Positions 7,010-41,000 of a DNA stretch of 64,000 bases are shown piece after piece; positions within the stretch are counted from its first letter, which is position 1, and each line of letters starts with the position of its first letter. The position numbers and the translations under genes are program-made. A model generated the notes under the pieces. That model worked only from the letters and a program-made list of their open reading frames with translations. It did not search any database and had not been told where the DNA came from. The DNA comes from Lingula anatina (lineage: Eukaryota; Animalia; Brachiopoda), in the NCBI GenBank assembly GCA_051362555.1, contig CM120640.1, positions 15,500,001 through 15,564,000 on the forward strand. The letters are read 5' to 3'.

Positions 7010-10000
7010 TTATAATTTAGATTTAGGCATTTGTCCCATCAGCTTCTCAAGCTTCATTGCTAAGGCCATATTGCCTGACAGTTTCAGTTTTCCTGTCATA
7101 AATGCTGCTGTGGGTTTCATGCTTCCTTCAAACATCTTCACAAAATCCCCGCTGTCCATGGTCATAGTGACATCTGCCGCCTCTGGTTCCCCTTGACCAA
7201 CTGCCCCTGCACCATTTTTCATGTCTAAGTACCAAGTTCCAGAATCTGCACCTGCAGATTGAAATTAATATTCAAACATAACACTTGTAGCTTTAAGTGT
7301 AGGGGGCAAATTTCTAGCAGAAAGCATAGATACAGCTTCAGCAGTCTTGTTTCAACCAAATAGTATTCTACAGCCCCCGTGTGTGATTTCAAATTTGGGT
7401 AATATTATTACAAGTGCCACTTTTCAAATGTTCTAGTATGTCATATTTTAGTCGTATCACTTCAATCTTTCTTATTTATGCTCCCCATTTAAGATCATTT
7501 TTGCATTTTATATAAGCGTAACATACAGACATGTTTCACATAAAAATGAATATCTTTATAATTTAAAATTAAGAAATATTGTTCCATTGTGCTAGTAGGC
7601 TAAAGACTCTCCCTTCATAGTTGTAAGGACCACTTACCTTGTAAGTTGAACTGAAACACTCCATTCACAGACTTCACCAATTCTTCATTCAACATTTTCT
7701 CAAGAGTTTGGAATAGTTTCTGTGGTCCCCCAGTTCCTGCAGCAGGTGCCTGCTGGGTGGCCTCTGCTGCTCCACCACTTTTCTGGCTCTTCTGCATCTG
7801 TACCATCAGTTTCTCAAGTTTCATTGCAAAACCAAGATTGCCAGATATTTTCACTTTCCCTGTCATAAATGCTGCTGTTGGCTTCAGGTTTCCTTCAAAC
7901 ATCTTCACAAAATCCCCGCTGTCCATGGTCATAGTGACATCTGCTGCCTCTGGCTCCCCTTGACCAACTGCACCTGTACCATTTTTCATGTCCAAGTACC
8001 AAGTTCCAGCATCTGCACCTAAACAAAATATCATGAACTGTTTAAAAACTGTGGAATAGAAAAGATCATTTTCTCTTACTTGTACTAGATTTTTCCTCTG
8101 TTTTTATGTATGAGTAATATATCACATTGACTCCTGTAAACCTCACCTAGGACCTGTATTTGATGCAAGTTCTGTGGGAGGCAAACCTTATTAAGTTTTA
8201 CCTTGTAAATTGAACTGGAACACTCCTCCCACTGACTTCACCATTTCTTCATCTAACATTTTCTCAATGGCTTGGAATATTTTCTGCGGTCCACTGGCAG
8301 ATGGTTTACCATCATCTAACTGATCCTGAAGCTGCTTGGGATCAACATCTAAGAAGAAGTCTGGCAGAAGTACATTACCTGTAAATGCAAGGTGACATGT
8401 AGGACCATGAAACAACACAATCTAGTGTCCAGGCAAAACATGGATTAGAGGTGGGGCAGTTGGTGAAGGCTGTACTTCAAATTTGCAACATGTGGTTAAT
8501 AGTTCTTGACAGTCTATTGTTTTATTGATAACATTGTTAGTTCTATTTTATATGTTTTCTATTAAATATATGTAGTGGAGAGCTACTGGTTTCTGGATTC
8601 TTTATTTTATACAAATTCGAAAAAATATCAATACTTCAAATACTTTTTGCAACACTGGGCAAGGGCTGATTTAGGCCGTCTTCTGGGTCTTCCAGAAGAC
8701 GGTCAGATTTTCAAGTTTACATTGACAGGTATCTAATGTTTTCTGTCGGAAGACGGTCAAAAATGTAGGATGGATCAACAAAGATAATTTGGAAGACTGT
8801 CAGAAAATATCTCTGGATCCGCCCCTGACTGGGTGTCTTCCATCACATCATTTCTCACATTTTAAAATTGAATTTGGTTGTTATAACAAAAGTCCCTAGC
8901 ACTACCCAAAGAATCATTACTTGCTGAACTATTATTCCAAAAGAATATATACTTAAAGTTCTTACTTTATTTGCACTTCTAAGATTTAGACCAAATGCAA
9001 GAAATGATAAAATAATATTGTCTATTTATCAATTACCTGGTACACAGTCATATTGTCCTAAATCTGTGACACCTGATTCTGTAAGGACTTCATCATCAAT
9101 GGCAAAGTGACCGCTGTAGCTCTTGCTATCTTTGGTAAGAATCTGATATGCAGCATCAGCCATGATTTCTGGTTTACGACATTGCTTGGCAACGTCATCT
9201 CCTCCCCCCAACATTTTCATAGCAGCTGTGTAGATGGCTATAAACAAAACAGACAGATATCCTACAAATATATATCTGCAATAACTGGTTATAAAAACAA
9301 ACTTAAATGCCACTGCTGCTAACTGTGGCCATTTATTGGAACACAGGCTTCAGATCCAGGCATATCCCTAAATCTGATAATGCATTGAACCCTGAAATCA
9401 ATACAATATATTGAACTCTGGGTTCAACATATTATTAATATTACAATGCATCAAAATTAACACTGCATTACCCTAATAAACTGATATATCAATTTCTAAA
9501 AGAGATTTTGTTGTATTTAAATCATTTTGACTGGGGAGACGGGAGAGCCAAAAAGATTTTTTTTTCTGAGACATGCTGTATCATTTGCCACTTGTATCTC
9601 ACCTGTTCTTGGCCACAAAGCATTTACAGCTATGCCATAACTCTTAAATTCTTCAGACATCCCCAGAACACACATTGACATCCCATACTTGGCCATTGTG
9701 TATGCTGCAAAAGATTTGTTTATATGTCATCGCTGAGTTCTGCAAAGATTTACATATAAATCAGTAAATCTACAAATCTAGACCGTCAATTATTAAAAAC
9801 TTAAAGCTGATGTGACTAGTATTATATCTGAGCAAACACGTCTTACCTACATGATCCTTGAACCATACTTGATTCATGTTCAATGGAGGACTAATGTTGA
9901 GAATATGTGGATTTTTGCCCTTCTTCAAATATGGCAAACAAACCTTTGAGCTGAAAATAACAAAAAAATATCTTAAAAGCAGATTTACAACAAAAAAAGT

Positions 10001-10698: not shown

Positions 10699-11736
10699 CC
10701 TAAATTAATAATAATAATAACTGTTAACAGTACATGGATGGTGTCGAAGGGTTGTAATTCTAATCTCTGCACTTCCTCGTTCCGTAAAGAGTAGCTCACC
10801 CTCAGGGACCTGGTTCCTTGGAAATCTATGACAATGCCCAGGCCCAATGCATAATTATTGCAAAATAATCTACACAACAACAGCATAAAAAGGAAAAGAT
10901 GAAAAAATACTAATGGCAAAAGAGAAGATTCCCCCACCCACAACAGCCAAATCCCAACGGGCACATAATTATGACTGGTCCATCCATATTCCTGACGAAC
11001 TTTTAACTTTCTCAGTTGCTTAGGAGATAGCGGAATTACAATATGAAAAAAATCAGAATCATCAGCCATCCAGGGACAGCCCAACCCTGAAGTGCCCCTG
11101 TACATCTGTGATGAAAAGGCTGTTAATACTCAAAGCTTGAACTTATTCACTCTAATGGCCTTGGAGGAGTAAGGTAAATTAGATTAGAAAAGGAAAGCAA
11201 CCCCACGCGAACCGTGGTTAGTTAACTCACTTTGTCTTTTTGACAGGCAGCTGAGTTTGCCGACCAAGTCCACGCTCCATTACTATGCATTAGCCCTGAG
11301 CGATTCGTATATAATAAGATGTATCCAATTCATGGACCCTCTTATCACTTTGAACCATTCGATCAAGACAAATCACCTGATCGAGTTTACTTACCCTAAC
11401 GGTCGGAGAGATCTCTACACCGTGCTGTTAGTTCTAGTATGCAGTGGTCAGAGTTCAGCAAATTTGGACTTTAACCCCACCGGCTGCTAGTGTAGGCACG
11501 CAGTAAATATTTTTGCTGTTATTCAACATCATTTGTAAAACCTTAATGTGTCTTTTACCTATTATTATTGTTGTCCTTAATTTTTAAAAAAAAATTTTGT
11601 ACAGAAAAATCTCATTTACTTTTATACAAAATATCATTCTTGTAACTTTGTGCCATATCAGACTCAAAAGAGTACGAGACCATTTAGTATGTAAACAGAC
11701 AGATGTTTTCCCTACCTAATCAGTATTTGCCAAAAG

Positions 11737-14700
11737 ATGTCACGCCAGGGGAAGACCTTTGTCATTGGAGTTGGGATGACAAAGTTTGAAAGGCCTATGA
11801 GCAAACAATGGGATTATCCAGATATGGGAAGAGAAGCAGGTAATGCCACTGCCAGTAAAAAAAAAATGGACACTGGACTTTGTCCCTGTAATTTCAGTGC
11901 GGACATTTCAGTGTAGGTTATATCTTACTCATGATCAGTTGATGTTATAATGAGAAAAGGTGGGCTTCTTAATATACCCCCTCCCCAACCCAAACACACA
12001 AACGTATTTAACTTTAAGTGTCTGTATATATTATGATAGGTGTGTCTGACTGTGTCATCACTGTCACTGTTGCTGCCATGCACATGACGTTCGCCCCCAT
12101 AACTGCCAAACCGTATTTTCGTTTTAAATTTACTGAGTGGGTTTGTTCCCTGCAAAGGATTTTGCAGAGTAAGGGTAAGTGCTTGTTCACTGTAATTTTC
12201 ACCAGGCAGACAGTATATGGTTGTGCGGGTAGGCTGGCCCGTTATATGGCTTGTGTGCCCGTAACATGCATGGTTAAAACGGAAGAGGCTGTTGAACGGC
12301 AGCCATTACCTGGCCCCTCAAACACGCAAATTCGACGTGTTTGACGTGAAAATCATTTTTTGAGACGAGGTAGGTGTTATAAGGGGGTGTAGTGCCAGGG
12401 GCAGGTAGAACCGGCCGGGTAGCTCAGTAGGTAAGAGCACTCGTTCTGTTAGCGAGGGGTCCCGGGTTCGATTCCTGGTCTGGTTGGTGATTTTTCTGCA
12501 CTCACCCCAAATCGCTACAATGGTGGCAGCGGTGTTGCGAGATAGGGCTCGCGTCTTTCGGCATTTGGGGGGGAGGAGTGTAGTGCCAGGGACAGGTAGA
12601 ACTGGCCGGAAAGCTCAGGTGGTAGATCACTCGCCCTGTTAGCGAGAGGTCCCGGGTTCAATTCCTGGTCTGGTCGGTGATTTTTCTGCACTCACCCCAA
12701 ATTGCTACAATGGTGGCAGCGGTGTTGCGAGATAGGGCTTGCGTCTTTTGGCATTTGGGGGGGAGGAGTGTAGTGCCAGGGGCAAGTAGAACCGGCCGGG
12801 TAGCTCAGTAGGTAAGAGCGCTCGCTCTGTTAGCGAGGGGTCCCGGGTTCGATTCCTGGTCTGGTCGGTGATTTTTCTGCACTCACCCCAATTCGCTACA
12901 GGGGTAAATGTATATGTCATCCGGTTGCTTTGTTTAGGCCATTGGGATGTTCAATTTATAGAAATAAGTGTTAAAGTGCGGCTGGAAAAGGAGGGTTTAT
13001 ACATATTTCAATGTCAATGAGACATGTGTGGTGCGAACAAAGAATAACTTCTAAACTGTATTTTTGTTTTACTTAAAATTTATTGAGTGACTTCATTTTG
13101 TAAAGAGGCAGATTACTTACAATCGATATTGGCATAATCAGTTTACATTTACGGTCATTTTTCTGGAGACATTTGCCCCTTAAAGGGATAATAACTCTTC
13201 GTATGAGATCTATATTTCACAATAAAAACCTTGTGAATAACTCATAGAAATATAATATATTCTGTTTTACCACAAAAACAGCAGTTATAGCTATTATTCT
13301 GATATCTGAGCTTGTCTTTAGACCACGTGACCTCCATTGATGTCTATACTCTGTTAAAATCTCTTAAGAGATTTTAACAAAAAACCAAACTTTTTAGAAA
13401 AAAACCAGGGACTAACTTTGAATGTAAAAATGGATTCATTAACCATTGGTAAGTATGGGAAAATTGTTGTTTACTCCAGGAAAATTCATTTTTTGGCCGA
13501 AACGAAGAGTTATTATTGCTTTAACTGCCAAACCACATTTTTTTTTCCTTTAATTTTACTGAGTGGCATTTTTTGGTCAAGGAAACAGGTTGCTTTTGAA
13601 AATTGGCAGGATTGGTTTACATATATACAGTAATATTCTGTTTTTTTGCACAATTTTCATGATGTTAGCCCCATACCTTCCAAACCATAGTTTTGTTTTA
13701 CTTAACATTTACTGAGTTACTTTGTTTGGTAAAGAGGCAGGTTGTTTTCAAAAATTGGCTTAATCAGTTAACATTTAAGGTAATTATTCTGTTTTTTTTC
13801 TTTTTTTGTGTGTGTGTGTTTGAATTTTTTCACACATTTGCATTTTAAGTGGCTTTTATGTCCTGTGGAACTGAATCACTTGCTAGTTTTTCAATGTCCA
13901 TTTTACTTGTAGTACATTATGTAGTAGGGTAAGAGTGATTATGCTGTTTTAAAGCATTATCCTTATGTAACAGTGCATTAAATATGTCCGAAACATTATT
14001 TTGTGCACTTTCTTCTGGGTAATGCATAAACATTTTACAGCTTAGCTGCCTTGTTTCCTGTATGGTGTCTGAATAGTTGCTAGCTTTGCTGTCTAGTTTA
14101 AATTAAGTGGTGACCTAAAGCAATACCTTGTCTGTTCAAATAAATAAGTCTTTCTATTTACTTTTCAAGTATTATTAAATATTAGTTCGACAAGTTGCTC
14201 ATTAAATTTCAACATTTTCACAAGCAACTTCAAGCCTATTCAAATATCTAAAAGGGCTGAAGCTAACTCAGGGGGCAGAACAATATATTATGCCCCACCC
14301 CCCTCTCCCCATTTTATCAACCTTTGTATTCCTTTTAACATTTGATTCTTTCCATAGATAAACATAATATTTCCTGAACATTTCAGGTTCTACTGCATTG
14401 GCTGATGCTGGCATTTCATACAATTCCGTCCAAACTGTGGTAGCCAGTTACTGCTATGGTGAACCTACATGTGGTCAGAGGGCAGTGTATGAATTGGGTT
14501 TGACTGGCATCCCAGTATACAATGTTAATAATAACTGTTCTTCGGGATCCAGTGCTCTTTTGCTTGCCAGGCAACTAGTTCTCAGTGGTATGGACTGCAC
14601 TATGGCACTGGGTTTGTATATTTTTAAGTTATGTTTGTGTGATTATATCATACCAAAAATACTTAGATAGTAACTCCCTATTTTCTGAAAATCTAACAAT

Positions 14701-16882
14701 CTTTTGGCAGTATCTTGTGATCACGGTCTGTGCCCTGAATACCCCACGGCATAATTACTGGCAGCATGAGCCAGTTACTTCCAAAGCTGTAATTAATTCT
14801 TGGCTGTGCTCAGAGGAGTTTCTGACATCTTGACACATGCAGTAGTATCTCTAAGCTGTGGAGTTCATCAGTTTAGTTGTGACGACTCAAGCATATAGAC
14901 ACGTAATATGGCTAGTGGTAGTGCTTCTTGCACAAAATTGACAAACACATTTTTCAAAGCAACTGCGACCGCCATTTACTTTCTAATTTCCTACTGCGCA
15001 TGCGTCAAGGTATGAGAATTTCCTCCGAGCGCAGCCGAGAATTAATTAATTACAGCTTTGGAAGTAATTTGCTTGCGCTGCCAGTAATTATGCCGCAGGG
15101 TATTCAGGGCACAGACCGTGATCACAAGATACCGCCAATAGATTTTTTGATTTTTAGAAAATAGATCTTTCATGTGAACGAATCCTCATTCTGTCCAGCT
15201 GATAGCAGTGAATGTGAATAAGAAACCCTAAACTGTAATAACATGTTTGGACCTGTTAAACTGAACCTGACTGGGCCAGTTCTGTTTACTGCTTGATGTG
15301 AGATGGGCCTAGGAATATTTAGGCTTCTCCTGTTTATTTATGATTGAATATTCACATACAGTATTTGATCTTATGTGAACAGATTTACCAAAGATTATAA
15401 TTTTTACTTCTCAGGTTTTGAAAAAATGGAAAGAGGACTATCCCAGAAGTATGAAGACAAGATATCCCCAGTGAAGAGGCACATGGATCACATGGTGTCC
15501 TTAGGGGCAGATCCTGGGTTGATCAGACCAGACCTTAATGCTATGACCTCAGATGTTGTGAAATTGTTTGCTTACGCTGCTCAAGAATACATGAAGAAGT
15601 ACCCTGCACTGACTTTCAATGATCTTGCTCGAGTTGCACTGAAGAATAGAGTTCATGGATCACAGAATGAACGGGCCAGTCTTCAGAGACCTACCAATCT
15701 TCAGAATATAAAGAGCAGAATGCTATGTTATCCCATTGCCTTAGGGATGTCTGCCCCAACTGGTGATGGCGGTGCTGCGGCTATTGTGTGCAGTGAAAAG
15801 TTTGTGAAAGAACACAATCTTCAAGACAAGGCTGTAGAAATTCTAGCCCAGAACATGGTCACCGATCTTCCATCATCATTTGGCAAAAGTTACATGGACT
15901 TGTCAGGTTTTGCCATGGCCCAGCGAGCAGCAGACATGTGTTACAGGGACTCTGGCTTAACGGCAAAGGATATTGATGTGTTAGAAGTTCATGACTGCTT
16001 CTCATGTAATGAGTTATTTATGTATGAGGCCCTGAGGCTGGTCCCAGAGGGAAAAGCCCTGGAACTGTTTAATACAGGGAAATGGGTGCCCACCACAGAA
16101 GGTGGTCAGGTATATAAGATGGGGGACAGGTGGGTGGTTAATGCTTCAGGTGGACTGGAATCTAAGGGACATCCCATTGGAGCCACAGGTTAGTTTACAT
16201 TCCTAGCTTGTTATCAACTACAGTGATAGTACTTCAGTAATGTACCAACTAGATAAACTGCATCTTGTTGCAACATTCATCATCATGTATAACCATGATT
16301 TTACTTAATTGGAGAGGCCTCCAGAGAGTAAATGGTATTGTAAAAGATTATAACAAAATATGACAAAATAATGAGTACATCATTTTGCAAATGATCAAGT
16401 CAAGAGTTGTCTTATATCTTCTTCATTTACAAATTCATATATCTTTCTCTACTAATCACAAGGTAGAATGTTTTTATTTGTTAAAAGTAAATCTAAAGAC
16501 TAAAGATGTTTTCTTCCTATGAGAAATGACCTTTTTTGCATTGGCGAGACAAATCAGTTGTGTCTTAGAGACCCTATGATGATGAATCAGAACATCATGT
16601 CTCATGTGTAGAAAAAGCATTTATCTCTTCAGAACATTTAACTTTTTTATCTCATTATGCAAGAGACAAAGAAAAATCTCATCGAATAAGTATTTTCAAT
16701 TATTTTCATCCTCAGGTCTTGGCCAGTGTGCTGAGCTGGTGTGGCAACTGAGAGGAGAGGCTGGGAAAAGACAAGTAGCTGGAGCAAAGACAGCATTACA
16801 GCATAATTATGGCATTGGAGGGGCAGCAGTTGTTACCATGTATCAGAAACATAAACCAGGAATACCAAATGCCAGACTTTGA
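11737..16882 (+). CDS. SCPx/SCP2-type peroxisomal thiolase without the C-terminal SCP2 domain (P-44/DAF-22-like architecture), PTS1 -ARL; exons 11737-11839, 14387-14611, 15415-16188, 16716-16882
   Basis: [18 protein letters not shown] start, [13 protein letters not shown] catalytic Cys, [34 protein letters not shown], then KPGIPNARL*. All three introns are phase-1 GT-AG. Confidence 0.9.
12388..12900 (+). mobile_element. Tandem-array TRIM (mini LTR retrotransposon) with tRNA-like sequence in each LTR; LTRs at 12388-12519, 12579-12709, 12769-12900
   Basis: Each ~132-bp repeat runs TGTAG...CTACA. Each 59-bp spacer starts with PBS TGGTGGCAGCGGTG and ends with PPT GGGGGGGAGGAG. GGGG flanks both ends (12384-12387, 12901-12904). 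Confidence 0.85.
12413..12485 (+). pseudogene. tRNA-like Pol III cassette inside LTR1 (repeated in LTR2 and LTR3)
   Basis: A box TAGCTCAGTAGG and B box GGTTCGATTCC. In LTR3 the anticodon arm is CTCGC-TCTGTTA-GCGAG, the acceptor stem GGCCGGG/TCTGGTC pairs with G-U wobble, and a T-run follows. The anticodon loop is non-canonical. Confidence 0.65.
13184..13520. mobile_element. Kolobok-like non-autonomous DNA element
   Basis: TTAA on both sides and TIRs AG..ATAATAACTCTTCG / CGAAGAGTTATTATTGCT. Related copies lie at 51207-51832 (inverted) and about 21166-21360 (partial). Confidence 0.6.
14678..15186. mobile_element. Harbinger-like MITE, same family as 18459-18715, left end eroded
   Basis: Long inverted arms TATCTTGTGATCACGGTCTGTGCCCTGAATACC... 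/ ...GGTATTCAGGGCACAGACCGTGATCACAAGATA. The right terminus CATGTGAACGAATCC matches the 18715 terminus. Confidence 0.7.
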
Positions 16883-18458
16883 TCATCTCATGGGTCCTGT
16901 AAATGGAAGAAGAAAATGAGGAGGCATTTGTTTGAGAATGATCACTTGTTCTCTGCATTCGACAACTTTCTACAGGAAAAAGTTGCCAAAAAAATAAAGA
17001 AATCAGGTCTATGTTTTGTATCTAGATGACAAGCAAGGTGTGATAATCCAAACTGCTTTTATCTAGAATTTTCGCACAATGAAATGTATAATACTGTAAA
17101 ATTCACTGCATGGTTGACAGAGCTTCAAAACTAAAATTATAGTTAATTAACTTTGGTAATTTGTACAGTGCATCAATTGTAATAATTGATTTCAGTTCTG
17201 TGCCAAAGCATACATTAGTTCACTGACCATATATACTGGACCAAAATATAAATGCTCGTGAAAAAGGATTGATGTTTATGTTTTAATTATTAAACAATAT
17301 TAACTGCTATTGCTGGCTATGCATTGTAGATAATTACATAAAAAATAAATCATATTTTCATTATGCATATATTTTGGTTCAGTATATACATGTATCCAGA
17401 ACAAGAAGAGTAGTTAGTTATTTCAGGACTTAGGTAATATGTGTAGACTGGAGTTTAATAGTTTGTTTATGGTATTGCAAAGTTTCAAAAAGTACATTCC
17501 AGGGTCAGTCATTAAAATCTCTGAAAATACCAACTTCATATTTCAGATCTTTGACTCACTAGTTCTGTATCATCAGTGTGAAGTGTAGACTAAGGATACT
17601 TTATCATTCAAATATCGAAAATGAGTTATTTCCTGGATGTAATTATTCAATAATGCATCTACCTTTGTGTTGAATTAAAACAATAAAAATCTCCTTGAAA
17701 TATATATAATATAGGGCCTAAATTTCTCTTGCTATGTAGGTCACTCAAACCATTTATTGTATATTTAACACATTTCTATTTTGAGGTGAGACAGCAATTG
17801 CTAAGGGGCATAACTTCATCCTTGAACAAGATTTTATCATAAAAATTGGCATAGTTAACCAGAAGTGCATGGCCGCCATGAGCTTCAAACAGTGTCATTA
17901 AATTGGCATTAAAATGATGTTCATGGGTGCTCAGGTAAAGGAGAAATTTGAAAAGCCGTTTTTTTTTCCATTTCTCCCAAAATCGCAACTATGATGTCTG
18001 CTGTATGATGAAGTTTATGGCAAACGTTTACAATATCCTTACCATCAGGGCATTGCCATAAAACTTCGTCTCACCCAATATGTACACGCTCACAAAAATT
18101 AGGGTGAAGTAGAGTCTAAGAGAGTACAAAGGCTTTTGCTAACTCAAACATTCCTCGACAGTGTAGTTTCAAGACATTAAATGGCTTCTGCCAGCTAAAT
18201 TGTTGGTGCCCATAGGCAGTGTTAATTACGTCAAAATCATTTGCTTATCCCCCTCTCCCGACTATCTTAAATGTCAGACTTGTTCATGGCAATGCTAAAT
18301 TGAGTTTGTTGTTGCTGGCATGGCCATCTCCATTGCCACTGTCATTGCTGTGCACTTTCAGCAATAACACTATAATCGGAAAGCTGTTTAAGCTTGAAGA
18401 AAACCCTATTTTGGCCACTGCCTCCATAGTGACTATTAAAGGAAAACCATGTCACTTA

Positions 18459-18715
18459 GGCTTCGTTCACATGCAATGTCTATTTTCTAAATTCTATTTT
18501 CTATTTGCGGTATGTCTTATGATCATGGTCTGTGCCCTGAATATCCCGCGGCGTTATTACTGGCAGCGCGAGCCAGTTACTATAAGTTACTATAAGTAAC
18601 TGGCTCGCGCTGCCAGTAATTACGCGGCGGGATATTCAGGGCACAGATCGTGATCATAAGATAGCGCGAATAGAAAATAGAATTAAGAAAATAGACATTG
18701 CATGTGAACGAAGCC
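18459..18715. mobile_element. Fully palindromic Harbinger/Tourist-like MITE (257 bp)
   Basis: GGCTTCGTTCACATG...CATGTGAACGAAGCC with arms of about 120 bp and TTA on both sides. Confidence 0.8.
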
Positions 18716-18718
18716 TTA

Positions 18719-18944
18719 GGGTGCTTTCCCAGAGATTTAGATCGATCTAAAGATTAAGTTTTGGATCGACCTAACTCCCTGGGGGTTCAGGCTAAATTGC
18801 AGTCAGCCGAGCGGACACCATAGTTAATTACCCCCTTACAGCTTTTAGTAGGCGGGACAGACGCTTAAACTGGCCAAGCTGACAGTAATCTAGTGAGACT
18901 CCCCACAGGGATAGATCGATCTAAAAATCTATGGAAATGGGGTG
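18719..18944. mobile_element. Second MITE, inverted copy of 1596-1813
   Basis: Flanked by TTA at 18716-18718 and 18945-18947. Sequence identity to the reverse complement of 1596-1813 is visible directly. Confidence 0.7.
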
Positions 18945-20202: not shown

Positions 20203-21976
20203 TTTCAAAGTTAAGGGTGAGGGGTTGAGGTTGACGATTGGGTTGATGCTAAAAATTCTGACCTTCGCACAAGGTAGGTTCGATCGCTACTTTCAACAGA
20301 CTGAGCACTAGTTTTCGAGACAGTGCTACCCAGTACAATGTAGTACAAGCTACCTGTAGTGCATCCCTGAAAAAGAAAACTCACCTTTAAGAATTGTTCT
20401 TCAACTTTACTTGAATCTGGGTTTTCTTCAACTACTTAGAATTTTGCTTGTGATAAATGTGTATATGCTGCTGGTTGTGGAATTCAAGATACGTCTTTGC
20501 GCCTAGGCGGTCCAGAAAGGAATGACGGTTGGGGACTTGAATTGCGAAATTCAGAAATGGGTAATGATTTCATTGGACAGTTTAACCTAGATTGTCTTCA
20601 TTGCATTTTAATTATACAACCTGTTATCGTTCATCTCATCTAGGCTACAGAACTGGTGGTGGGGGGCATAATAAAGGTTATGCAATCACTACCTCTTCAC
20701 TCTCCCTTTTTGCATCTGAATAATAAACAATGGACAAGTAGTAGTCCACTTGACTGACCGACAACGGCTACCAGTTGTACAGGAGATGGTCACCAAGTAA
20801 ACAATAACTTTCGTGAAAAATATCCGATCGTACCGAATTTTAGCCATACAAAGCAATTTGAATTAAAACAATGAAAAGAACCATACACATGCGGCTTTTC
20901 AATTATGGGGCGAACAATGTCAAAATGCATGAGAAAAATGGGAAATTTAATTATTTATCAAGTTAATTAAGTTGCTTATACGTAATCCGACAATGCTGAT
21001 TTTGAAAGAAATCTGACTTTCTACCAAATAAGTCCGCCAGTAAATTTGAAATAAAGAATGGTCTGGCACTTACGGGCAAACGCTACCAGAATGTACGCGA
21101 TGAATGGGTAACCATCGTAATTTGCCGCAGTTTGCAACATTCAAGAATACATCCAAATACCTTTGAAGAGATAACAATTAACTCTTCATATAAGATTCAA
21201 AATTCCACCATAAATACATTGTAAACAACAAATAGAAATATAATAAATTCCGTTTTACCACCAAAACGGCAGTTATCGCGATTATTGTGAAATCTGGCCC
21301 TTCCAACAGACCACGTGGACCTTCACACTTGGCTATCCTCCGTTATCTTAAGAGATTATATTTGAAAAAGCACACTTAAAATTTTTCTTTTTCCAATTTT
21401 CTCCTACTATATTTTCTTGGGTGTGTATTTATAACCCTTTATCATGTATTGTAAAACGTCTTCTTATGAGTAGCTATTTTTAAAAAATGATTAATTATTA
21501 CTTATATATAATATTAGGATCATTAACGGGAAATGTTCCCGCTAGAGGGCAGCTAAGACTGGCGACAACGCACTCACCAGGGCCTGATAAATAAAATATT
21601 TGTGGGAATTTGACATGGATCGAAAATATAAAGTCATGAGAACTCCCTCCCCCCCCCCCCCCAAAAAAAAAAAAGGTAAATAAAAAATCGACAAACGTCC
21701 CTGTGGCCCATATAAAGTGTTTTAAAATACCACGTCCTAGCACATCCTGACACATTCATCCTCGTTATCGTAACACACATGACGTCATAAAATGAGCAGA
21801 TGAATCAACGGGAAAAGGTATGGCCGAAGTCAACTCACTTTTCTCCGTTCGATTTTAGTTTTACTGCGAGACGAAATACGTTTAAAGACTGTGATAAGAC
21901 TTTTTGTACTCTTATATACATGTGGATCACATAGAACAACTAACTTAAAGAAGAATCCGAGGTTATATACAGTGAA

Positions 21977-28000: not shown

Positions 28001-31000
28001 AATATTCACAGTTAAACAAAGGCAACAATTATGCTAAGCTATGGCTTAATTGGGGGATTTTCAGTCAAGCTGCTGTTATTTTGATAATATCAGTTTAAAG
28101 CATATGCATGCCTTACTTATATTACAGATCCAAATCAGACACTGCTGTAAGGCGACATTGTCTCCTCTGCCAGAAGGTAATGGAAGATCCATATCCCATC
28201 CACTGGTATTGCAAATATCAGAAGGCTGTACAGCTAGGATGCGCATCAGCTCCTGCTAATGGCCCAGAAGCCACTGTTTACGACACAGCTGATGCTCTAT
28301 GTGATTACATGGGTGTACCAAGGTTGGCAAAGAAGAATAAAATTGAGCCCAATGATCATGTAGATGAGGACCACCAAGATGCTTACTTTCCTGATGTAAA
28401 ACTGACAGACCTACCTCAACAAGAACAACAAATTTGGATCAGCAAGCTCCTTCAGATCAATCCCTTGTGGGCAGCAAAAATCAGCTCATTGGAGGCAGGT
28501 AAAGGAGAGCCTGCAAGCATTAATACGACTACAGAGGAAATGCCGTGTGAGATGCAGTTGCCAGCAACAAATATGAAATCAGAGCTAGCAACAGCAATTT
28601 TATCTTTGACAATATTTAAGGCCCCAAGCACAGAAAGGGAAATTAACCCAGAAGACAACGTTAACGTGGAGATAAGCTTGACCTTGGGGAACACTGAGAA
28701 GAGAGCTGCTGAGTTCCTGAATGAGTTAATTGGTGACATGGTCAATATGCTAATAAAAGGCAAGACCTCTGCAGAAGACAGGGTTCTAGGGTGGCAAACA
28801 AAAGTATTTGAGTTCATGACAACTTACCAGAAGGTCCACCTTCAGAATAAGAGAAAATCTACAGAAGAGGGAGGTGAAGGCAAAGACATGCCCCAGAACG
28901 AAGAACCAGATAAGCATGCACCAAAGCTGTCTCTTACTGAGAAGCGGAACAGATCTGTGTTTGACACAAAGGGATTTGATACTGTTGTAAGAAGATTGAG
29001 TCAGGAAATGGCAATGAAGACCATTACAGAAGACCTATCTGATCATGAAAATGAATGGGAGGATGATTTGAGTGGCAGGCTGCAACTGAATATAACTGGA
29101 GAGTACATAAGACAGAAGGACATCAAGACACGTATAGAGGCAGTTGCGCAAACTGGTGAGTCACTTTTTGCCCTGGACTGGCAGCCTGTGGAGGAAAAGC
29201 TTGACAATGTCTGTGAGCCACAGAGTGTCATGCAACAGATTGGATTGCACACTGGAAAACTTGCTCCAGATCTCAAACCTCTGCAGAGGAAATCTGGCTA
29301 TGTGTGTGGCCGTAGTCTCACACACCTGTCTGCATCAGCGTCTGTGAACCACCTCAAAGAAGTTGTTCCAATGATGCAAGCAATGTCAAAGACAAGACAA
29401 AATGCATCTCTGGCAAACTTGACAGCATCAGAAGATACAACTCAGAGTAATGTTCAGAATATGGTTGCTGGCACCAGACCTCATTTATTGTTAGGTGAAT
29501 TGATGTCCAAAATAATAGCTAATGACCCAGATGTTGGTTTGAATGTTTTCAAGATGCTTCCAATCATACCAGTTGACATTACAGCTGAGTCATTGAAGGA
29601 TTTGGCCCAAGGTACCGCCCATGGTCTTTTAGCATCATTTGAAGATATGTGTGACATTGCCACTGAAGTCAGCCAGATGGCAATGGAAGAGTTTTCAAAT
29701 AAACTGGTTGAGAGTCTTCTGCAGGTGATCTCCACCAAGTTGGATGCTGACAAACAGTGTAGTCAGAGCCCTTCCACATGCCTGATGACAGTAAGTTTTG
29801 CCTTTCTTCAAAGATATTTTAAAACCAAATGCATGTCAAGTTAAGCAGACAGTCTCTGAGTGAGTGGATATATGAGCTCTGGCCATTTAAATTATTGTAA
29901 TTTTAGATCAGAATGGGAGATTCTTTATGTTGCTAATAAGGTTGAATCCTTTATCATTTCTAGAATGAAGAGACTGAGAGCCAACAACCAGGACAATGCT
30001 TTCACCATGACATTCCATCAACACATACAATCATTGGTCAGGTGCAGCAGCTAATGGAGAAAGAAATGATTGAGATCAGAAATGACGAGAATCAAATGAT
30101 AACAGAGGTAAAGTACACCAAGTCATCAAGAAAAAAAGGGAGTAGATCATTTATGAAGCCTCACATGAGGAGAAAAGACTAATACTCTATTTAGAATGCA
30201 GAATGAAGTTGAAGACAGAATAATATGTCAGCATCTTTTAATAACCATTTTGCTTTCATTGTGTGAACCTTTGTGTGTGTTTTGCTTTTTATATAAGCTT
30301 TTTTCAATTATTGCAGGCGTTTACCTACCATTACCTGGATGCACTGATTTTTAATGCCATCATTAGAGCTCAGTATGCCATTTTACACCAAAGCGATAGG
30401 GAAATTCAGGATCAAGAGTGCCAGGATAAAGAACAAGCTATTAAATTTGCCCAGGATCTTCTGCATAAGGATGTCGATGCATTTTATAATGACAAGTGAG
30501 CCTTTTGTTTTCTTTAAAAACGTCAATGTCATAATAAAAGTTCAATTATATATACAGTTATTTCTATTGCATATTTGAATACTAAATAACAACTGGATTT
30601 TTCAGCTGGGAAGCATGCAAGCAGACAGTCCAGCTAGGCCTCTTGGCTCTTAACAAACAGGGGGATGTGTTTGTAAAGGAACAAGAATTAAAGGAATCAA
30701 TCCTGGATAATGCTAAGACAATCGCCCAAAATGTTGCTGCTCTTGTGATGAAGGTAAAGACTATGTGCTTTTTGGTTAATATTGAACATGTGAATTTATT
30801 CAGACTATTTCTTTTAAATCTACTTGATGAAAACAAAAAAAGTTTGGTGATTTGACAGAGTCATAATACTCTAACATCACTACCTTCTAAAAATCTTTGA
30901 ATTGTATAAGTTCCAACATTACTTTTATGTTTGTTCAGCCCTGTAAACAAATTATTTAGTAAATATAAGATATTTTGCACCTCTTATAATACAGAAAGCC

Positions 31001-35083: not shown

Positions 35084-37526
35084 CACTAGTGGGCCTGATT
35101 TGATCTTAAAGTGCAATTTCAGTCTAACACTAGACTGAACCGGTCTTAAAAATTAAGGAGGGACTCTTAATTTAGTCTTAAGACTAAAAACAAACTTAAA
35201 CTGCAGTGAATAAGACTATAATTGGTCTAAATTCAACTGAAGTGGCAAAGCAATTATCTCCCCACACACATTCAGACCAAACTTGGACTTACTCTCCAGC
35301 CAGACAGGTGAAGATAACAATCAAGTAGAGGGCCATTGTGTGAGTAGCAAAGGGTGGTCTCTTGGCAAGTAAGTGCTAATTGCCTAATTGATAAGGGTGA
35401 TTCAGATACTGTCTCAGATAATTTCTAAAGCAAGGAAAGATTTGGTTGTGGAAGTACTAGTGCAGCATACTTTTAATGTTTTGACATAAGAGCTTATAGT
35501 TTTGAAAGCATTAACAAACAAGGTACATTTATTTTAAAATTAGACATGACCTTTTATTTGTCACAAACAATTGAAAAGTCACTTCAATCTAACATAAAAA
35601 TGCATGGGCGTAACTAGGCATACGCACGGATGCACTGTGCGTACAATTTTTTGGCCAACCATGAGATTATTTTATATAAATTTAGTGTATTTTTCACGGA
35701 ATATAAAAGAAAATCCTCTGCTTATTAAAGTCATCTGTATGTACAAATCCTCTGTATCAATTGTATAGGCACAATTGTTCTGACCCCCCCTCCCCGTCTT
35801 GCAATCTGAGGTTTACAATGCCTGTAACCTTAACAAGTCCTATCTTAATCGTCCATCTAACTGGAACTTCCTTTACCTTTATATTGGAGGGTTCAGTGGC
35901 CCTCAACTCTTCTGTACAATCTTTCTTGAGAATATCGAACGCATTCTCACTGGCAATATTTATCTCAGGTAAAAATCTGCCTGAGTGTTATTTTCAAAGA
36001 GCAGCTCGATCCCCTAACCCTGGGGGCACTAGATAAAATCTGGACACCAGGTTTAAGAGGGAGCTAGAGAAACAAATGAAGAATTTTTCCTGCAAAACTT
36101 CAAAGAATTTTGACAGGGACTTGACCCAGCTTACCCCTCCAAACTAACAGGGTGACATGGGCAATTTTTACAAACATATAATTAAACTTAGATGTATCAG
36201 AGCTCTGTCGTGTCGTTTTGGGGCGCCATGCATCCACATGTAAGGTGAATGAAACCGTATGTTACTTCAACTCAGAGGTGGATCCAGGATTTTTCGAAGG
36301 GGGTTCCACATATGCGAAGCTAGCCTCCTTTTAAATAAATATACCGTTCTTGGTAATAAGAATATTGAAGCCTTTTTAATTGCGAAAATATTTCTGACTA
36401 AATGATGATTTTATTATTAATGGAAATTAAGCTGCGGTGTGTGGTACATATGCTGTAATTACGCTGTCCTTCATCTCCTGCGTTAGTCTACATTTTGCTG
36501 GGAATTTTAAAAATCTGTGCGTACAATTTTTAAAGGTCTGGTTACGCCCCTGAAATGTACAGCTTTAATTTTATTTAAAACCACATTATACCACAGGAAT
36601 TTTATGTTAGAATTTGATATTCAAAACAATATATATGTATTTCTTGATTTTTGCCTTTGAAGGAAGTTTTTCTCTCTTTTTTCTTTCTTTGATTTTTCTG
36701 ATCAAAAAACATTTTATCAAACATTGATAAACCAAATAAAATCACCATCTATAGCTGTTACAAAGGGTTTGCTAATATCACTGAGTGGTACCATTTCGTT
36801 TCCCTGGAATTTATTTTTTGAAAAAAAGAAATCCAGTTCTTTCTGAGGTGGGGAAAAAATATCTAACAAGACCCACACTGTTTCACAATGTCTGTATAAG
36901 TCTGACAGCCTTCCAAAGTGAATTACTCCTCCTCTGCTGTAGCTATGTACAGTTGGAGTTCTTGTGTAAATACTAAATGTCAAAACCTTTTAATAAAGAA
37001 AAATTGTGAAAATGTATGCTACATTTCCCCTGCTTTAGAAATTATCTGAGATAGTATCTGATTCACCCTTTAGATATATATCAAAATCAAAGAAAGAGAA
37101 AAGAAAGAAAGGAAGACTTCCTTCAAAACAACATTAAAAGTATGCTGCACTAGTACTTCCACAACCAAGTCTTTCCTTGCTTTAGAAATTATCTGAGACA
37201 GTATCTGAATCACCCTTATCAATTAGGCAATTAGCACTTACTTGCCAAGAGACCACCCTTTGCTACTCACACAATGGCCCTCTACTTGATTGTTATCTTC
37301 ACCTGTCTGGCTGGAGAGTAAGTCCAAGTTTGGTCTGAATGTGTGTGGGGAGATAATTGCTTTGCCACTTCAGTTGAATTTAGACCAATTATAGTCTTAC
37401 TCACTGCAGTTTAAGTTTGTTTTTAGTCTTAAGACTAAATTAAGAGTCCCTCCTTAATTTTTAAGACCGGTTCAGTCTAGTGTTAGACTGAAATTGCACT
37501 TTAAGATCAAATCAGGCCCACTAGTG
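35084..37526. mobile_element. Foldback-type non-autonomous DNA transposon with CACTA termini and 397-bp inverted arms (35084-35480 / 37130-37526)
   Basis: Arms are almost identical (two mismatches seen). Ends are CACTAGTG, AAA flanks both sides, and there is no transposase ORF inside. Confidence 0.75.
35603..36552. mobile_element. TIR element nested inside the foldback
   Basis: CATGGGCGTAAC / GTTACGCCCCTG termini with AAATG on both flanks (5-bp TSD). Confidence 0.5.
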
Positions 37527-38043: not shown

Positions 38044-41000
38044 TCAATTTCTTTTTTTCTTAGTAGCTGATGATGCAGTTTCTGTAATATTTCTCTTCCT
38101 GTTTTTCCCACCATCTGAGATCTCTGGTTTTATGGCAAATGTGAGACATAATTAAGGCAAAATGCTGATGACAAACTTCTAAATATATTTCCAGTATTTA
38201 AATAAATCAATTTGCACTTCATATCTTTTTAATCCACAATATTTGTTTACAGTATTCAATGAATTATCAAATGTTAAATTAACCTTACTGGTTTGTGTGG
38301 ACAGTTGCTGAGAAGAGAAGAATGTTCTAATAATTTACAGCAGAATCACTAAGAAATTCATCCAAAAGAAGCATTAAATACAATAAAAGGATATGAATCG
38401 ACGTCAATCTTCTGCTGTAGAAGGCCAGTCAGAAGAAACTCTGGGCTTACACAAGGGATTCCCATATCACTAACGGCTTTGAAGTTCTTTGTTTCTTCAT
38501 TCTCCCCAACTATGACAAAAATGTTATCCCCCACTTTCTTTGGCATTGTGGCCAAATACTGCCCTCCTGCACACTTGACTATCTCTGGAAAAGGAAAACT
38601 GCTAGGTTAATAATTTTACTTCAATTACCCTCTGATGAGATATTTACTTGATTGTTGTTTTTGACATGCAGTTACATGTCAAACAGATAGACAAGGTGTT
38701 CATACCATGCTGACCTATAATTACAATCATGAATGCTCCAAGCATAAACTTTTTTTTACATCACTTTAGCAACTGATCCTAGACTATAAATATCAGTAAA
38801 TAGTAAAATGTTACTTTTTGCCACCACTATTACAGGTGTTTTTGTTTTGTATTTGCATAATTAAACCTGTATTATCTGACAACATTGTAGCATTTACGAA
38901 CTTGCAAGTTCATACACAGTAGACGTAGAGAAGACCCAGACACTGTGGTAAAAGTCAGATACATCACTCCTCAGCAAGGTTCACATGACATCCTCTAGTT
39001 TTTAAACTGGTAACAATTACATGCATTTCACTGACTTGAGGTATCTCTATCACTTATTCTAAGATAAGAAACAAAATAGGATCATGTTTTTCTTCTTTAT
39101 CTCTGCATTCCATACCTTTGATATCAGCAGGTGGCGGTGCTGTCGACTTAGTTGCATGAATCTTACACCCAGTCAATAAAGGACGCATGGCAGCTTTCTG
39201 AATGGAATCCCTAAGGTTGAACTTAAACTTCTGTTCTGCTGCTCCATCCTTTACCAGAAAAGGGTGGGCATCTGAAAGACAGCATCAATGGGATTCAAAT
39301 AAAGGAAAATTTTATAGGGCAGCCATTTTCCAAACAAATTTCATGTTTAAATTTGTAATATTCAGATAAATGTCTACTGCTTACTTTCAACTGTCAGCTA
39401 ACTTTATTTAGCAGCTCTGCATAGTTCAGAATTATTCAGAACCTTATTGCCATGTCACCATTATAGAGTCCATTTACCAATAAATGTATGTGCATCTTTG
39501 CATCTGTCAATCCACTCAATGGACACAATGGGGATCCCTCTGCCCAAGGCACACAAGAATTTCAGTGTTCTTCTTACCTATCAATAATATTGTTTCTATA
39601 ATGGCATAAGAACATATTTGCCCCCCAAATTTCTTTAAATCTCAAGATACCCCCCTCCCCAATTATGACATATCATGACCAAAATGACTTCTCAAATTAC
39701 TGCATTTTTGGGCATTTAAAAAATTAAAATTTAACTGCTGGCAGTTTTTTTAGTAGGCTGCATGTCATAGAAAATTTAAATATGTATATCTGCAAGCATT
39801 TCTTGGAACTTGTTCTCCACCAACCATTTTCAAGACTGACCTACTGAATTTGTATGAAGTTAGTCACCACTCCTCAACTGTCACAGTTAACTGTAATCTT
39901 TTATAAAATCATGAATAAGCCACAACTTACTTTGTCTGTGACAAGGTGTGTGCAATCCTGAATGGAATGGACTAACTCCCCACCAAGGTTTTTGATAGTC
40001 TAAAATAGAAATCTTATCATATTGGACACAGGTTTTTTATTCCTTGTCGCTTAAATGTAGCAGTCTCTTCAAACTAGATGGCTCACATAATTTTTCTTAT
40101 CTTTATCAGAAAAACCACAGAATAAGAATAAAAGATTACTAAAAAAAAAGAAATAACAATACTGAACTCACCTTACTTCCATCTTCATCAAGCACTCCAG
40201 TAAACATAATCTTTGGCTTGGTAAATGTTCTATGTCTGAGACTGGGAGATTCAATGGTCTGGGAGGTATCATGCTCTCTAGCTGGCGTTCCAAGGGAAGT
40301 TCTTTTGTTTCTTTTAGAACCAGTATCTCGGGAATCATTCTTAGAAAGGCAAAATTTGAGTATACTGTAATTTTGTGAATCTAGTAAGTTGATTTAAAAA
40401 CAACCCCAAACAAAGTGTCAAAGCTGTGGATAATAAATACAGTGTTTAATACTGGACAATCTTATTTCTTAAAAATAATCAAATTCAATATATTAATGAG
40501 GCAAAGATCAGAAGAAGCCTCGCCTGTTTCACTAATATTCAAGATATTTAGTGGCCCACGTCATAAGTTTTTCACTTACACTTGACTGACTGTCAGAGGA
40601 CAGGTCTCTTTTCTTCCTGCCAACTCTCTCTGGTTCAATCAAAATTGATTCTTCTGATTTATTCCGGGCTGAGGCCCTTTGCCCCCTTGTAGTTTGCACT
40701 GGAATCTCTTCAGGTTTGACAAAGCCCTCTTTTTTCTGTTCTACCTTGGCAGACGCCTGCCTGCTACGGGCACTTCTAGTAGCTGCTGGGGTTTCATCAT
40801 TTACTGCAGGTTCAATAGTCATATTATCTCTACCTGCTGATTTTTGTTTTGTCCTACTTTTTCTCACCGTTTTTGATGTTTGATTTTCTGTAATATGGGT
40901 GTCCCTCTTGTTAGGAGAAGGCCCTTTCAACTGTTCATCTTTGTTCTCTTCTGAAACATTTATACTGGCTACACAGCTTTGTCTTTGTCTCTTGTTCCTG

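What the first reader, a model, noticed from the sequence alone, without database searches (positions are those of the whole stretch)
12384..12904. Tandem three-LTR mini-retrotransposon (TRIM) whose LTRs contain tRNA-like Pol III genes
Seen: what looks like a tRNA tandem repeat has full LTR-retroelement structure. Three 131-132-bp TG...CA LTRs are separated by 59-bp internal segments. Each segment holds a PBS (TGGTGGCAGCGGTG, complementary to a tRNA-Leu-type 3' end with CCA) and a PPT directly before the next LTR. A 4-bp GGGG TSD brackets the whole array. Each LTR holds an A box, B box, foldable cloverleaf and oligo-T. Known: Cassandra TRIMs carry 5S RNA in their LTRs, and tRNA-in-LTR TRIMs with 4-bp TSDs in animals have been described as Helenus (recalled from memory, to be verified). 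Inference: this is a Pol III-driven parasite of a Gypsy-like helper, here in LTR-int-LTR-int-LTR tandem form. LTR2 differs visibly more from LTR1 and LTR3 than they differ from each other, suggesting template switching or recombination between copies.
Basis: partly seen in the sequence, partly recalled or inferred. Interest (0 to 1): 0.8.

Follow-up and report, generated by a model that had tools for sequence, protein, structure and literature searches.

The report
Known Helenus mini-retrotransposon, fused double copy
This is a head-to-tail double copy of a tiny non-coding jumping element already catalogued in the brachiopod Lingula (Helenus-1_LAn). It carries a tRNA look-alike as a likely promoter, sits in an intron, is missing at this spot in other samples, and likely arose by fusing two slightly different family members, so it is largely ordinary.

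Summary
The anatomy is real. There are three TG..CA LTRs (132/131/132 bp), two 59-bp internal parts with a 14-nt tRNA-Leu primer site and a purine tract, and GGGG on both sides. It is a published family: internal part 1 is identical to Helenus-1_LAn, and the outer LTRs match its LTR at 128/132 and 127/132 (Kojima 2024, Data S1; compared by eye). Table S1 gives 132/59 bp and a 4-bp TSD. New here: contigs of 4 of 4 DNA runs hold the empty site, one of them colinear on both flanks with a single G-run, so the 4-bp duplication is shown directly. The middle LTR has Helenus-1 ends, a Helenus-3-like core and a sibling in another sample, so the array is likely a heterodimer integrated in one step. Three-LTR TRIMs, template-switch dimers and tandem Helenus arrays are all in print, and this scan noted three-LTR Helenus copies on other DNA. 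Pol III drive and a Gypsy helper remain untested. A T5 run ahead of each primer site argues against simple Pol III transcription, and sparse RNA reads show no start or end. Verdict: already known, low interest.

The parts
12384..12387 (.). left target-site duplication GGGG (last four of a G5 run 12383-12387)
   Evidence: empty-site contigs hold one G-run only
12388..12519 (+). LTR1, 132 bp, Helenus-1_LAn type
   Evidence: 128/132 to the published consensus by eye
12413..12486 (+). tRNA-like unit in LTR1; A box 12420-12431, B box 12465-12475; TGT at the anticodon position; 4 G-U pairs in the acceptor stem
12491..12495 (+). T5 run, Pol III terminator-like, upstream of the first PBS
12520..12578 (+). 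internal part 1, 59 bp; PBS 12521-12534 (tRNA-Leu-AAG type), polypurine tract 12567-12578
   Evidence: identical by eye to Helenus-1_LAn-I; primer match from Fig. S2
12579..12709 (+). LTR2, 131 bp, shared middle LTR; Helenus-1 ends with a Helenus-3-like core; tRNA-like unit 12604-12676, T5 12681-12685
   Evidence: sibling haplotype in run X3
12710..12768 (+). internal part 2, 59 bp; PBS 12711-12724, polypurine tract 12757-12768; two CpG-type changes against I1, one creating a T4 at 12746
12769..12900 (+). LTR3, 132 bp, Helenus-1_LAn type; tRNA-like unit 12794-12867, T5 12872-12876
   Evidence: 127/132 to the published consensus by eye
12901..12904 (.). right target-site duplication GGGG
11840..14386 (+). 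host context: predicted phase-1 GT..AG intron of an SCP2-type thiolase gene, element in sense orientation
   Evidence: downstream exon hits Pfam Thiolase_N and PDB 6hsj SCP2-thiolase, E 1.7e-21

Best explanation
This is a polymorphic insertion of the known non-coding TRIM Helenus-1_LAn in three-LTR form, likely made when reverse transcription joined two different family members into one cDNA that a borrowed, probably Gypsy-type, integrase inserted in one step with a 4-bp duplication. Shown: the anatomy, the family, the empty site and duplication, and that the middle LTR's haplotype exists apart from this array. Inferred: a host tRNA-Leu primes at the PBS, the purine tract primes the second strand, and a helper supplies RT, RNase H and integrase. 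Also inferred: the tRNA-like unit serves as an internal Pol III promoter rather than as a working tRNA. That would give an RNA of about 273 nt from the tRNA start to the T5 of the next LTR, which needs partial read-through of the first T5. The dimer cDNA would come from a second strand transfer onto a co-packaged RNA, or from a read-through RNA of an earlier mixed tandem. Either route makes the outer LTRs copies of one template and leaves the middle LTR different.
For: Family: I1 59/59, LTR1 128/132 and LTR3 127/132 to Data S1 (by eye); Table S1 lists 132/59/323 bp and TSD 4. Single integration: the joint 12388->12912 is in 4 of 4 DNA runs from 3 studies. X3 record 10 (553 bp, depth 4) is colinear over 12138-12388 with 3 differences and 12912-13179 with 9 differences and 2 gaps, and reads G5 then TAAATG. 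The filled site has G5 + element + G4. Internal junctions are clean, with no inner duplication. Outer LTRs are sisters: 127/132, and they alone share T at LTR position 58, where contigs read C (12445: 6716.7 of 6716.7 depth; 12826: 10059.8 of 10162.8). The middle LTR is foreign: 5 of its 12 differences from the Helenus-1 consensus (32A, 41G, gap 46, 63T, 70A) are Helenus-3_LAn letters (by eye; 63T is also in the outer LTRs). X3 record 14 (107 aligned letters, 5 differences, 0 gaps) keeps LTR2's 14A, 25T, 42T and the gap. Flanking TSD plus similar outer LTRs are the published marks of template-switch dimers (PMC1950507 section 4). Gypsy-57_CaAu and Gypsy-130_CGi share this PBS type (Fig. S2).
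Against: Only one derived letter (58T) is exclusive to both outer LTRs, and they differ at 5 places. Recombination of a foreign LTR-plus-internal circle or gene conversion after insertion gives the same picture. The flank is itself a repeat: X1 holds 7 letter variants of the empty site, so several empty sites are paralogous and orthology rests mainly on X3 record 10. The filled allele was not seen outside the window. No helper was looked for, because no genome is held. For human Pol III in vitro, T5 left no read-through product (PMC3141230 passage), which conflicts with Pol III reaching the PBS. RNA reads were few (8 in X16 and 38 in X13, about 6% of each run read). X13's reads lie on both strands, half or more run on into unlike sequence, and there is no start or end pile-up.
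Confidence: 0.6

Rival explanations
1. A normal two-LTR Helenus-1_LAn copy integrated first. A one-LTR circle or cDNA of the minor subfamily later recombined into one of its LTRs, or the middle LTR was gene-converted after a tandem duplication. Same family, DNA-level origin of the dimer.
For: It keeps the TSD and the likeness of the outer LTRs. 12 of the 13 columns where LTR2 differs from both outer LTRs or sides with only one of them lie at or before LTR position 83, so its 3' part is resident-like. Integrase-independent entry into existing elements and recombination are listed routes to tandems (PMC11899658 passages).
Against: It needs two rare events at one locus that is still empty in other samples. 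No two-LTR allele of this locus was seen, although contigs could not show one.
Confidence: 0.27
2. Unequal crossing-over between sister copies of one two-LTR insertion duplicated a unit, and LTR2 then simply decayed.
For: This is a published route to tandem TRIMs (PMC7215508 and PMC11899658 passages). Four of LTR2's changes are CpG-type transitions.
Against: LTR2 should then be a mosaic of LTR1 and LTR3. Instead it carries Helenus-3 letters and shares 14A, 25T, 42T and the gap with a separate contig in X3.
Confidence: 0.05
3. The element is mobilised from Pol II passenger transcripts (introns, UTRs). The Pol III cassette makes only a short tRNA-like RNA that ends at the first T5.
For: T5 stopped human Pol III completely in vitro. 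This copy lies sense in an intron, and half or more of the RNA reads run on into unlike sequence.
Against: It does not explain why the A and B boxes are kept across Helenus (PMC10886601 section 3.5). It also does not explain a T4 or longer run after the B box in 22 of 24 complete named animal LTRs in part 7 of 11 of the supplement (counted by eye). It concerns transcription only and is compatible with either origin of the dimer.
Confidence: 0.25
4. A functional tRNA-Thr(TGT) gene array, or an assembly artefact.
For: ARAGORN of 3 units, and Rfam scores pass the gathering threshold. The filled allele is seen only in the window.
Against: The array is absent at this site in contigs of 4 of 4 runs and has full LTR anatomy. 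The anticodon loops have C at the near-invariant U33 position and T at the purine-37 position, and the acceptor stems hold 2-4 G-U pairs (canonical positions from general knowledge). The three LTRs differ at 5-15 places, which argues against a copy-number slip in assembly.
Confidence: 0.03

Closest known systems
Helenus-1_LAn (Lingula anatina; Kojima 2024, PMC10886601, Data S1 and Table S1)
   Same: Internal part identical (I1 59/59, I2 57/59); LTR 132 bp at 96-97% for the outer copies; 4-bp TSD; tRNA-like unit with A and B boxes in each LTR.
   Different: The paper gives the two-LTR consensus (323 bp). This copy has three LTRs (513 bp), a divergent middle LTR (120/132) and is shown here to be a presence/absence polymorphism. 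The paper's main text has no word starting 'polymorphi'.
Helenus-3_LAn (same paper)
   Same: LTR2's core (about LTR positions 32-70) carries its letters.
   Different: LTR2's 5' end, B-box region and 3' end follow Helenus-1, and both internal parts are Helenus-1 type.
Tandemly arrayed TRIMs (L3I2) and Cassandra arrays (PMC4717578, PMC7215508); tandem LTR-11_DR Helenus (PMC10886601 section 3.8); tandem biv-TRIM (PMC6934838)
   Same: LTR-internal-LTR-internal-LTR with shared LTRs; L3I2 was 63 of 93 maize arrays, with TSDs shown for the figured examples.
   Different: Cassandra carries 5S rRNA, and its RNA is reported to end early in the 3' LTR's 5S part. The plant examples have 5-bp TSDs.
Template-switch complex LTR elements (Sabot and Schulman 2007, PMC1950507)
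   Same: An internal LTR, flanking TSD and similar outer LTRs.
   Different: Those are 10-17 kb cereal elements with coding cores; this is a 513-bp non-coding animal TRIM.

Membership tests
Helenus (TRIMp3) | Short non-coding element, LTRs with TG..CA ends, internal part with PBS and PPT | tested here: met
   monomer equivalent about 323 bp; PBS one base after the LTR; 12-nt purine tract abutting the next LTR.
Helenus (TRIMp3) | tRNA-derived sequence with A and B boxes inside each LTR | tested here: met
   Rfam RF00005 41-51 bits in 3 of 3 LTRs; boxes located; LTR2's A box has one change.
Helenus (animal) | 4-bp target-site duplication | tested here: met
   GGGG on both sides; empty-site contigs hold one G-run. 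One locus only.
Helenus (animal) | PBS complementary to a tRNA 3' end, unrelated to the LTR's own tRNA-like unit | tested here: met
   14-nt match by eye to tRNA-Leu-AAG as printed in Fig. S2 for Apis. The host's own tRNA-Leu was not available, and the LAn families are not listed in that figure.
Helenus-1_LAn | Sequence identity to the family consensus | tested here: met
   By eye against Data S1: I1 59/59, I2 57/59, LTR1 128/132, LTR3 127/132, LTR2 120/132. Contigs on LTR1 read the consensus letters at 12444, 12445 and 12450.
Helenus-1_LAn | Dispersed multi-copy family | tested here: met
   Summed contig depth in X1 is about 8,600-10,000 over LTR1 against about 100-170 on 11671-11954 (not a copy number). 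Loose ends at LTR termini lead into other flanks. No second copy lies in the 64-kb window.
TRIMp3 | Transcription by RNA polymerase III from the LTR | tested here: inconclusive
   8 and 38 reads in two standard RNA-seq runs, no start or end pile-up; such libraries lose short RNAs. Also unvalidated in the source paper.
Helenus (animal) | Mobilised by an autonomous Gypsy element with the same PBS | not testable with these tools
   No genome held. Only cross-species PBS likeness from Fig. S2.
Template-switch heterodimer | Flanking TSD, outer LTRs from one template, middle LTR different | tested here: met
   Later recombination at DNA level gives the same marks, so this does not prove the route.
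Functional tRNA-Thr gene array | Canonical tRNA residues and a fixed, conserved locus | tested here: not met
   C33/T37-type loop, 2-4 G-U acceptor pairs; locus empty in 4 of 4 runs. tRNAscan-SE was not available.

The most novel reading that the evidence does not exclude
Helenus runs on a deliberately leaky Pol III terminator. The T-run after the tRNA unit, present in 22 of 24 animal Helenus LTRs inspected, must be read through in the 5' LTR and obeyed in the 3' LTR. It thereby sets the RNA's 3' end and, when skipped twice, yields dimer RNAs (464 nt here) that transpose as three-LTR units. Co-packaging swaps promoter cores between sister families (Helenus-1 and -3), and this young polymorphic heterodimer is a captured product of both processes.
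Probability: 0.25. Interest if true: 0.5.

Novelty: already known. Interest (0 to 1): 0.17.

Why it matters
As it stands it matters little: one more copy of a catalogued family. It adds a directly shown empty site and 4-bp duplication for Helenus-1_LAn, so the family moved recently enough to segregate. It shows that a three-LTR copy can join two subfamilies. It warns that tRNA finders call these LTRs tRNA-Thr (2 of 3 here). If the leaky-terminator reading holds, it would explain how a tRNA-promoter LTR element gets its RNA past a Pol III stop and why such elements form tandems. The describing paper's main text does not raise this: 'terminat' occurs twice, both times about Cassandra.

Tried and rejected
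Whole-genome copy counts, TSD tallies and a helper search were not possible because no genome is held. No RNA holder was listed among indexed runs; this is not evidence either way. RNA laying gave too few reads for a verdict on Pol III. Other Rfam families near the array were chance-level (E 0.18 and 0.33). No further Helenus copy lies in the window, and no retroelement domain was found in the 11 of 26 long ORFs scanned with Pfam. A nested insertion is rejected because there is no inner duplication at the LTR junctions. A 5-bp TSD is rejected because the left 5-mer is GGGGG and the right is GGGGT. The idea that LTR2 is just an older, decayed copy was dropped after X3 record 14 showed that three of its apparent private changes are shared. 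A sequence look-up in earlier scan findings returned nothing. No date was estimated, since no substitution rate was at hand. Literature searches found no paper beyond Kojima 2024 that treats the Lingula families; subscription papers and Repbase entries are not covered.

Full report
Observation. The structure is as described. LTR1 is 12388-12519, LTR2 12579-12709 and LTR3 12769-12900, each TGTAG..CTACA. They are separated by two 59-bp internal parts (57/59 alike), each starting with a primer-binding site one base after the LTR and ending in a 12-nt purine tract. GGGG flanks both ends; a 4-mer match at this spacing occurs at 377 of 63,480 window positions. Each LTR holds a tRNA-like unit (Rfam 46.9, 41.4 and 51.2 bits) with A box, B box and a T5 run. 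ARAGORN calls two of three as tRNA-Thr(TGT). The units fold no better than shuffles, and they have a non-canonical anticodon loop and 2-4 G-U acceptor pairs, so they are unlikely to be working tRNAs.

Identity. A paper search found Kojima 2024 (PMC10886601). I read its abstract, parts 1-4 of 6 of the text, the legends and tables, and supplement parts 1, 7 and 10 of 11 plus two searches. Data S1 holds Helenus-1_LAn from Lingula anatina. Compared by eye, I1 is identical (59/59), I2 57/59, LTR1 128/132, LTR3 127/132 and LTR2 120/132. Table S1 lists LTR 132, internal 59, full length 323 and TSD 4. Fig. S2 prints the tRNA-Leu-AAG 3' end, which pairs with 14 nt of this PBS, and two Gypsy families of other animals with the same PBS type. 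The paper infers a Gypsy helper for animal Helenus, states that Pol III function is unvalidated, and notes tandem arrays of the zebrafish family. The host is therefore probably Lingula or a close relative; this is inferred from the family match.

Insertion site. The array lies in sense orientation in a predicted GT..AG intron (11840-14386) of an SCP2-type thiolase gene. Laying four DNA runs from three studies gave the joint 12388->12912 in 4 of 4. In X3 one 553-bp contig at depth 4 is colinear on both flanks (3 differences in 251 letters; 9 differences and 2 gaps on the right) and reads five G then TAAATG. The window has five G, the element, then four G, so exactly four bases were duplicated. 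That contig also carries 7 extra letters after 12911, an unrelated small indel. The flank is itself a moderately repeated sequence and X1 holds seven variants of the empty site, so some are paralogues; none has more than five G. The filled allele was not seen outside the window, which collapsed contigs cannot be expected to show.

The middle LTR. Five of LTR2's twelve differences from the Helenus-1 consensus are letters of the sister consensus Helenus-3_LAn (positions 32, 41, gap 46, 63, 70; 63 is also in the outer LTRs), while its ends are Helenus-1 type (by eye). In X3, a low-depth contig (record 14, 12567-12673, 5 differences, no gap) keeps LTR2's 14A, 25T, 42T and the gap and differs at 12608, 12611, 12627, 12660 and one unlisted place. 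A few X13 RNA reads from two start points show a similar pattern. LTR2 therefore belongs to a minor lineage that exists apart from this array. LTR1 and LTR3 alone share T at position 58, where nearly all contig depth reads C. TSD plus sister outer LTRs plus a foreign middle LTR are the marks that Sabot and Schulman give for template-switch dimers (PMC1950507, abstract and section 4 read). Recombination or conversion after insertion cannot be excluded, and the rice study leaves the same question open (PMC11899658, passages).

How it likely works. A helper's reverse transcriptase would be primed by host tRNA-Leu at the PBS and by the purine tract, and its integrase would leave the 4-bp duplication (established LTR biology; helper not found here). 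The tRNA-like unit would act as an internal Pol III promoter. The difficulty is the T5 upstream of each PBS. Human Pol III showed no read-through at T5 in vitro, although read-through at canonical signals is reported for some templates (PMC3141230, passages). A T4 or longer run follows the B box in 22 of 24 complete named animal LTRs in supplement part 7 (by eye; one LTR cut at the top and one at the bottom of that part were left out, and the other parts were not counted), so the run looks maintained. Partial read-through would give a 273-nt monomer RNA and a 464-nt dimer RNA. Two standard RNA runs gave 8 and 38 reads with no start or end pile-up, half or more running on into other sequence; this neither supports nor excludes Pol III transcripts.

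Comparison and novelty. Three-LTR TRIMs are the commonest tandem form in maize (63 of 93; PMC4717578, passages), and tandems are reported for Cassandra (PMC7215508, passages) and bivalve TRIMs (PMC6934838, passages). A 2026 meeting report only cites Helenus (PMC12859917, passages). Searches found no further study of the Lingula families in the held library. Earlier notes of this scan describe three-LTR Helenus copies in other genomes (unchecked). The element is a member of a known family in a known arrangement. Interest 0.17.

Noticed in passing
window 13180-13520: A 341-bp very high-copy element with 31-nt inverted arms (MITE-like). Contig depth is about 10^6 in X1. It is skipped by contigs in X3 and X9, so it is a second presence/absence polymorphism in the same intron. 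Partial copies lie at 21160-21360 and 51202-51836.
   Followed up: partly
window about 11950-12387 and 12905-12950: The Helenus copy landed inside an older, moderately repeated sequence (contig depth up to about 3,300 against about 100 in X1; seven empty-site variants). The repeat was not identified.
   Followed up: partly
window 11737-16193 (+): Exons of an SCP2-type thiolase gene (Pfam Thiolase_N and Thiolase_C; PDB 6hsj hit).
   Followed up: partly
window 7615-8103 (-): SCP-2 sterol-transfer domain on the opposite strand (Pfam E 1.5e-24), belonging to a divergently oriented gene. A 227-bp 89% direct repeat at 7027-7253/7794-8020 suggests duplicated SCP2 exons.
   Followed up: no
window 35084-35480 and 37130-37526: 397-bp inverted repeat pair at 99.5% identity, 2.4 kb overall, probably a young DNA transposon.
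   Followed up: no
window 18455-18719; 62047-63087; 50081-50474: A 265-bp palindromic element, a 146-bp satellite-like array (6.3 copies) and a 159-bp tandem repeat.
   Followed up: no
window 28099-29844 (+), 40532-42523 (-), 43180-44712 (-): Long open frames (510-663 aa) with no Pfam match; the two minus-strand ones are low-complexity, probably large exons.
   Followed up: no
runs X1, X3, X13 laid on 12350-12950: Loose ends with Helenus-3_LAn-type letters show the sister family in the same samples.
   Followed up: no
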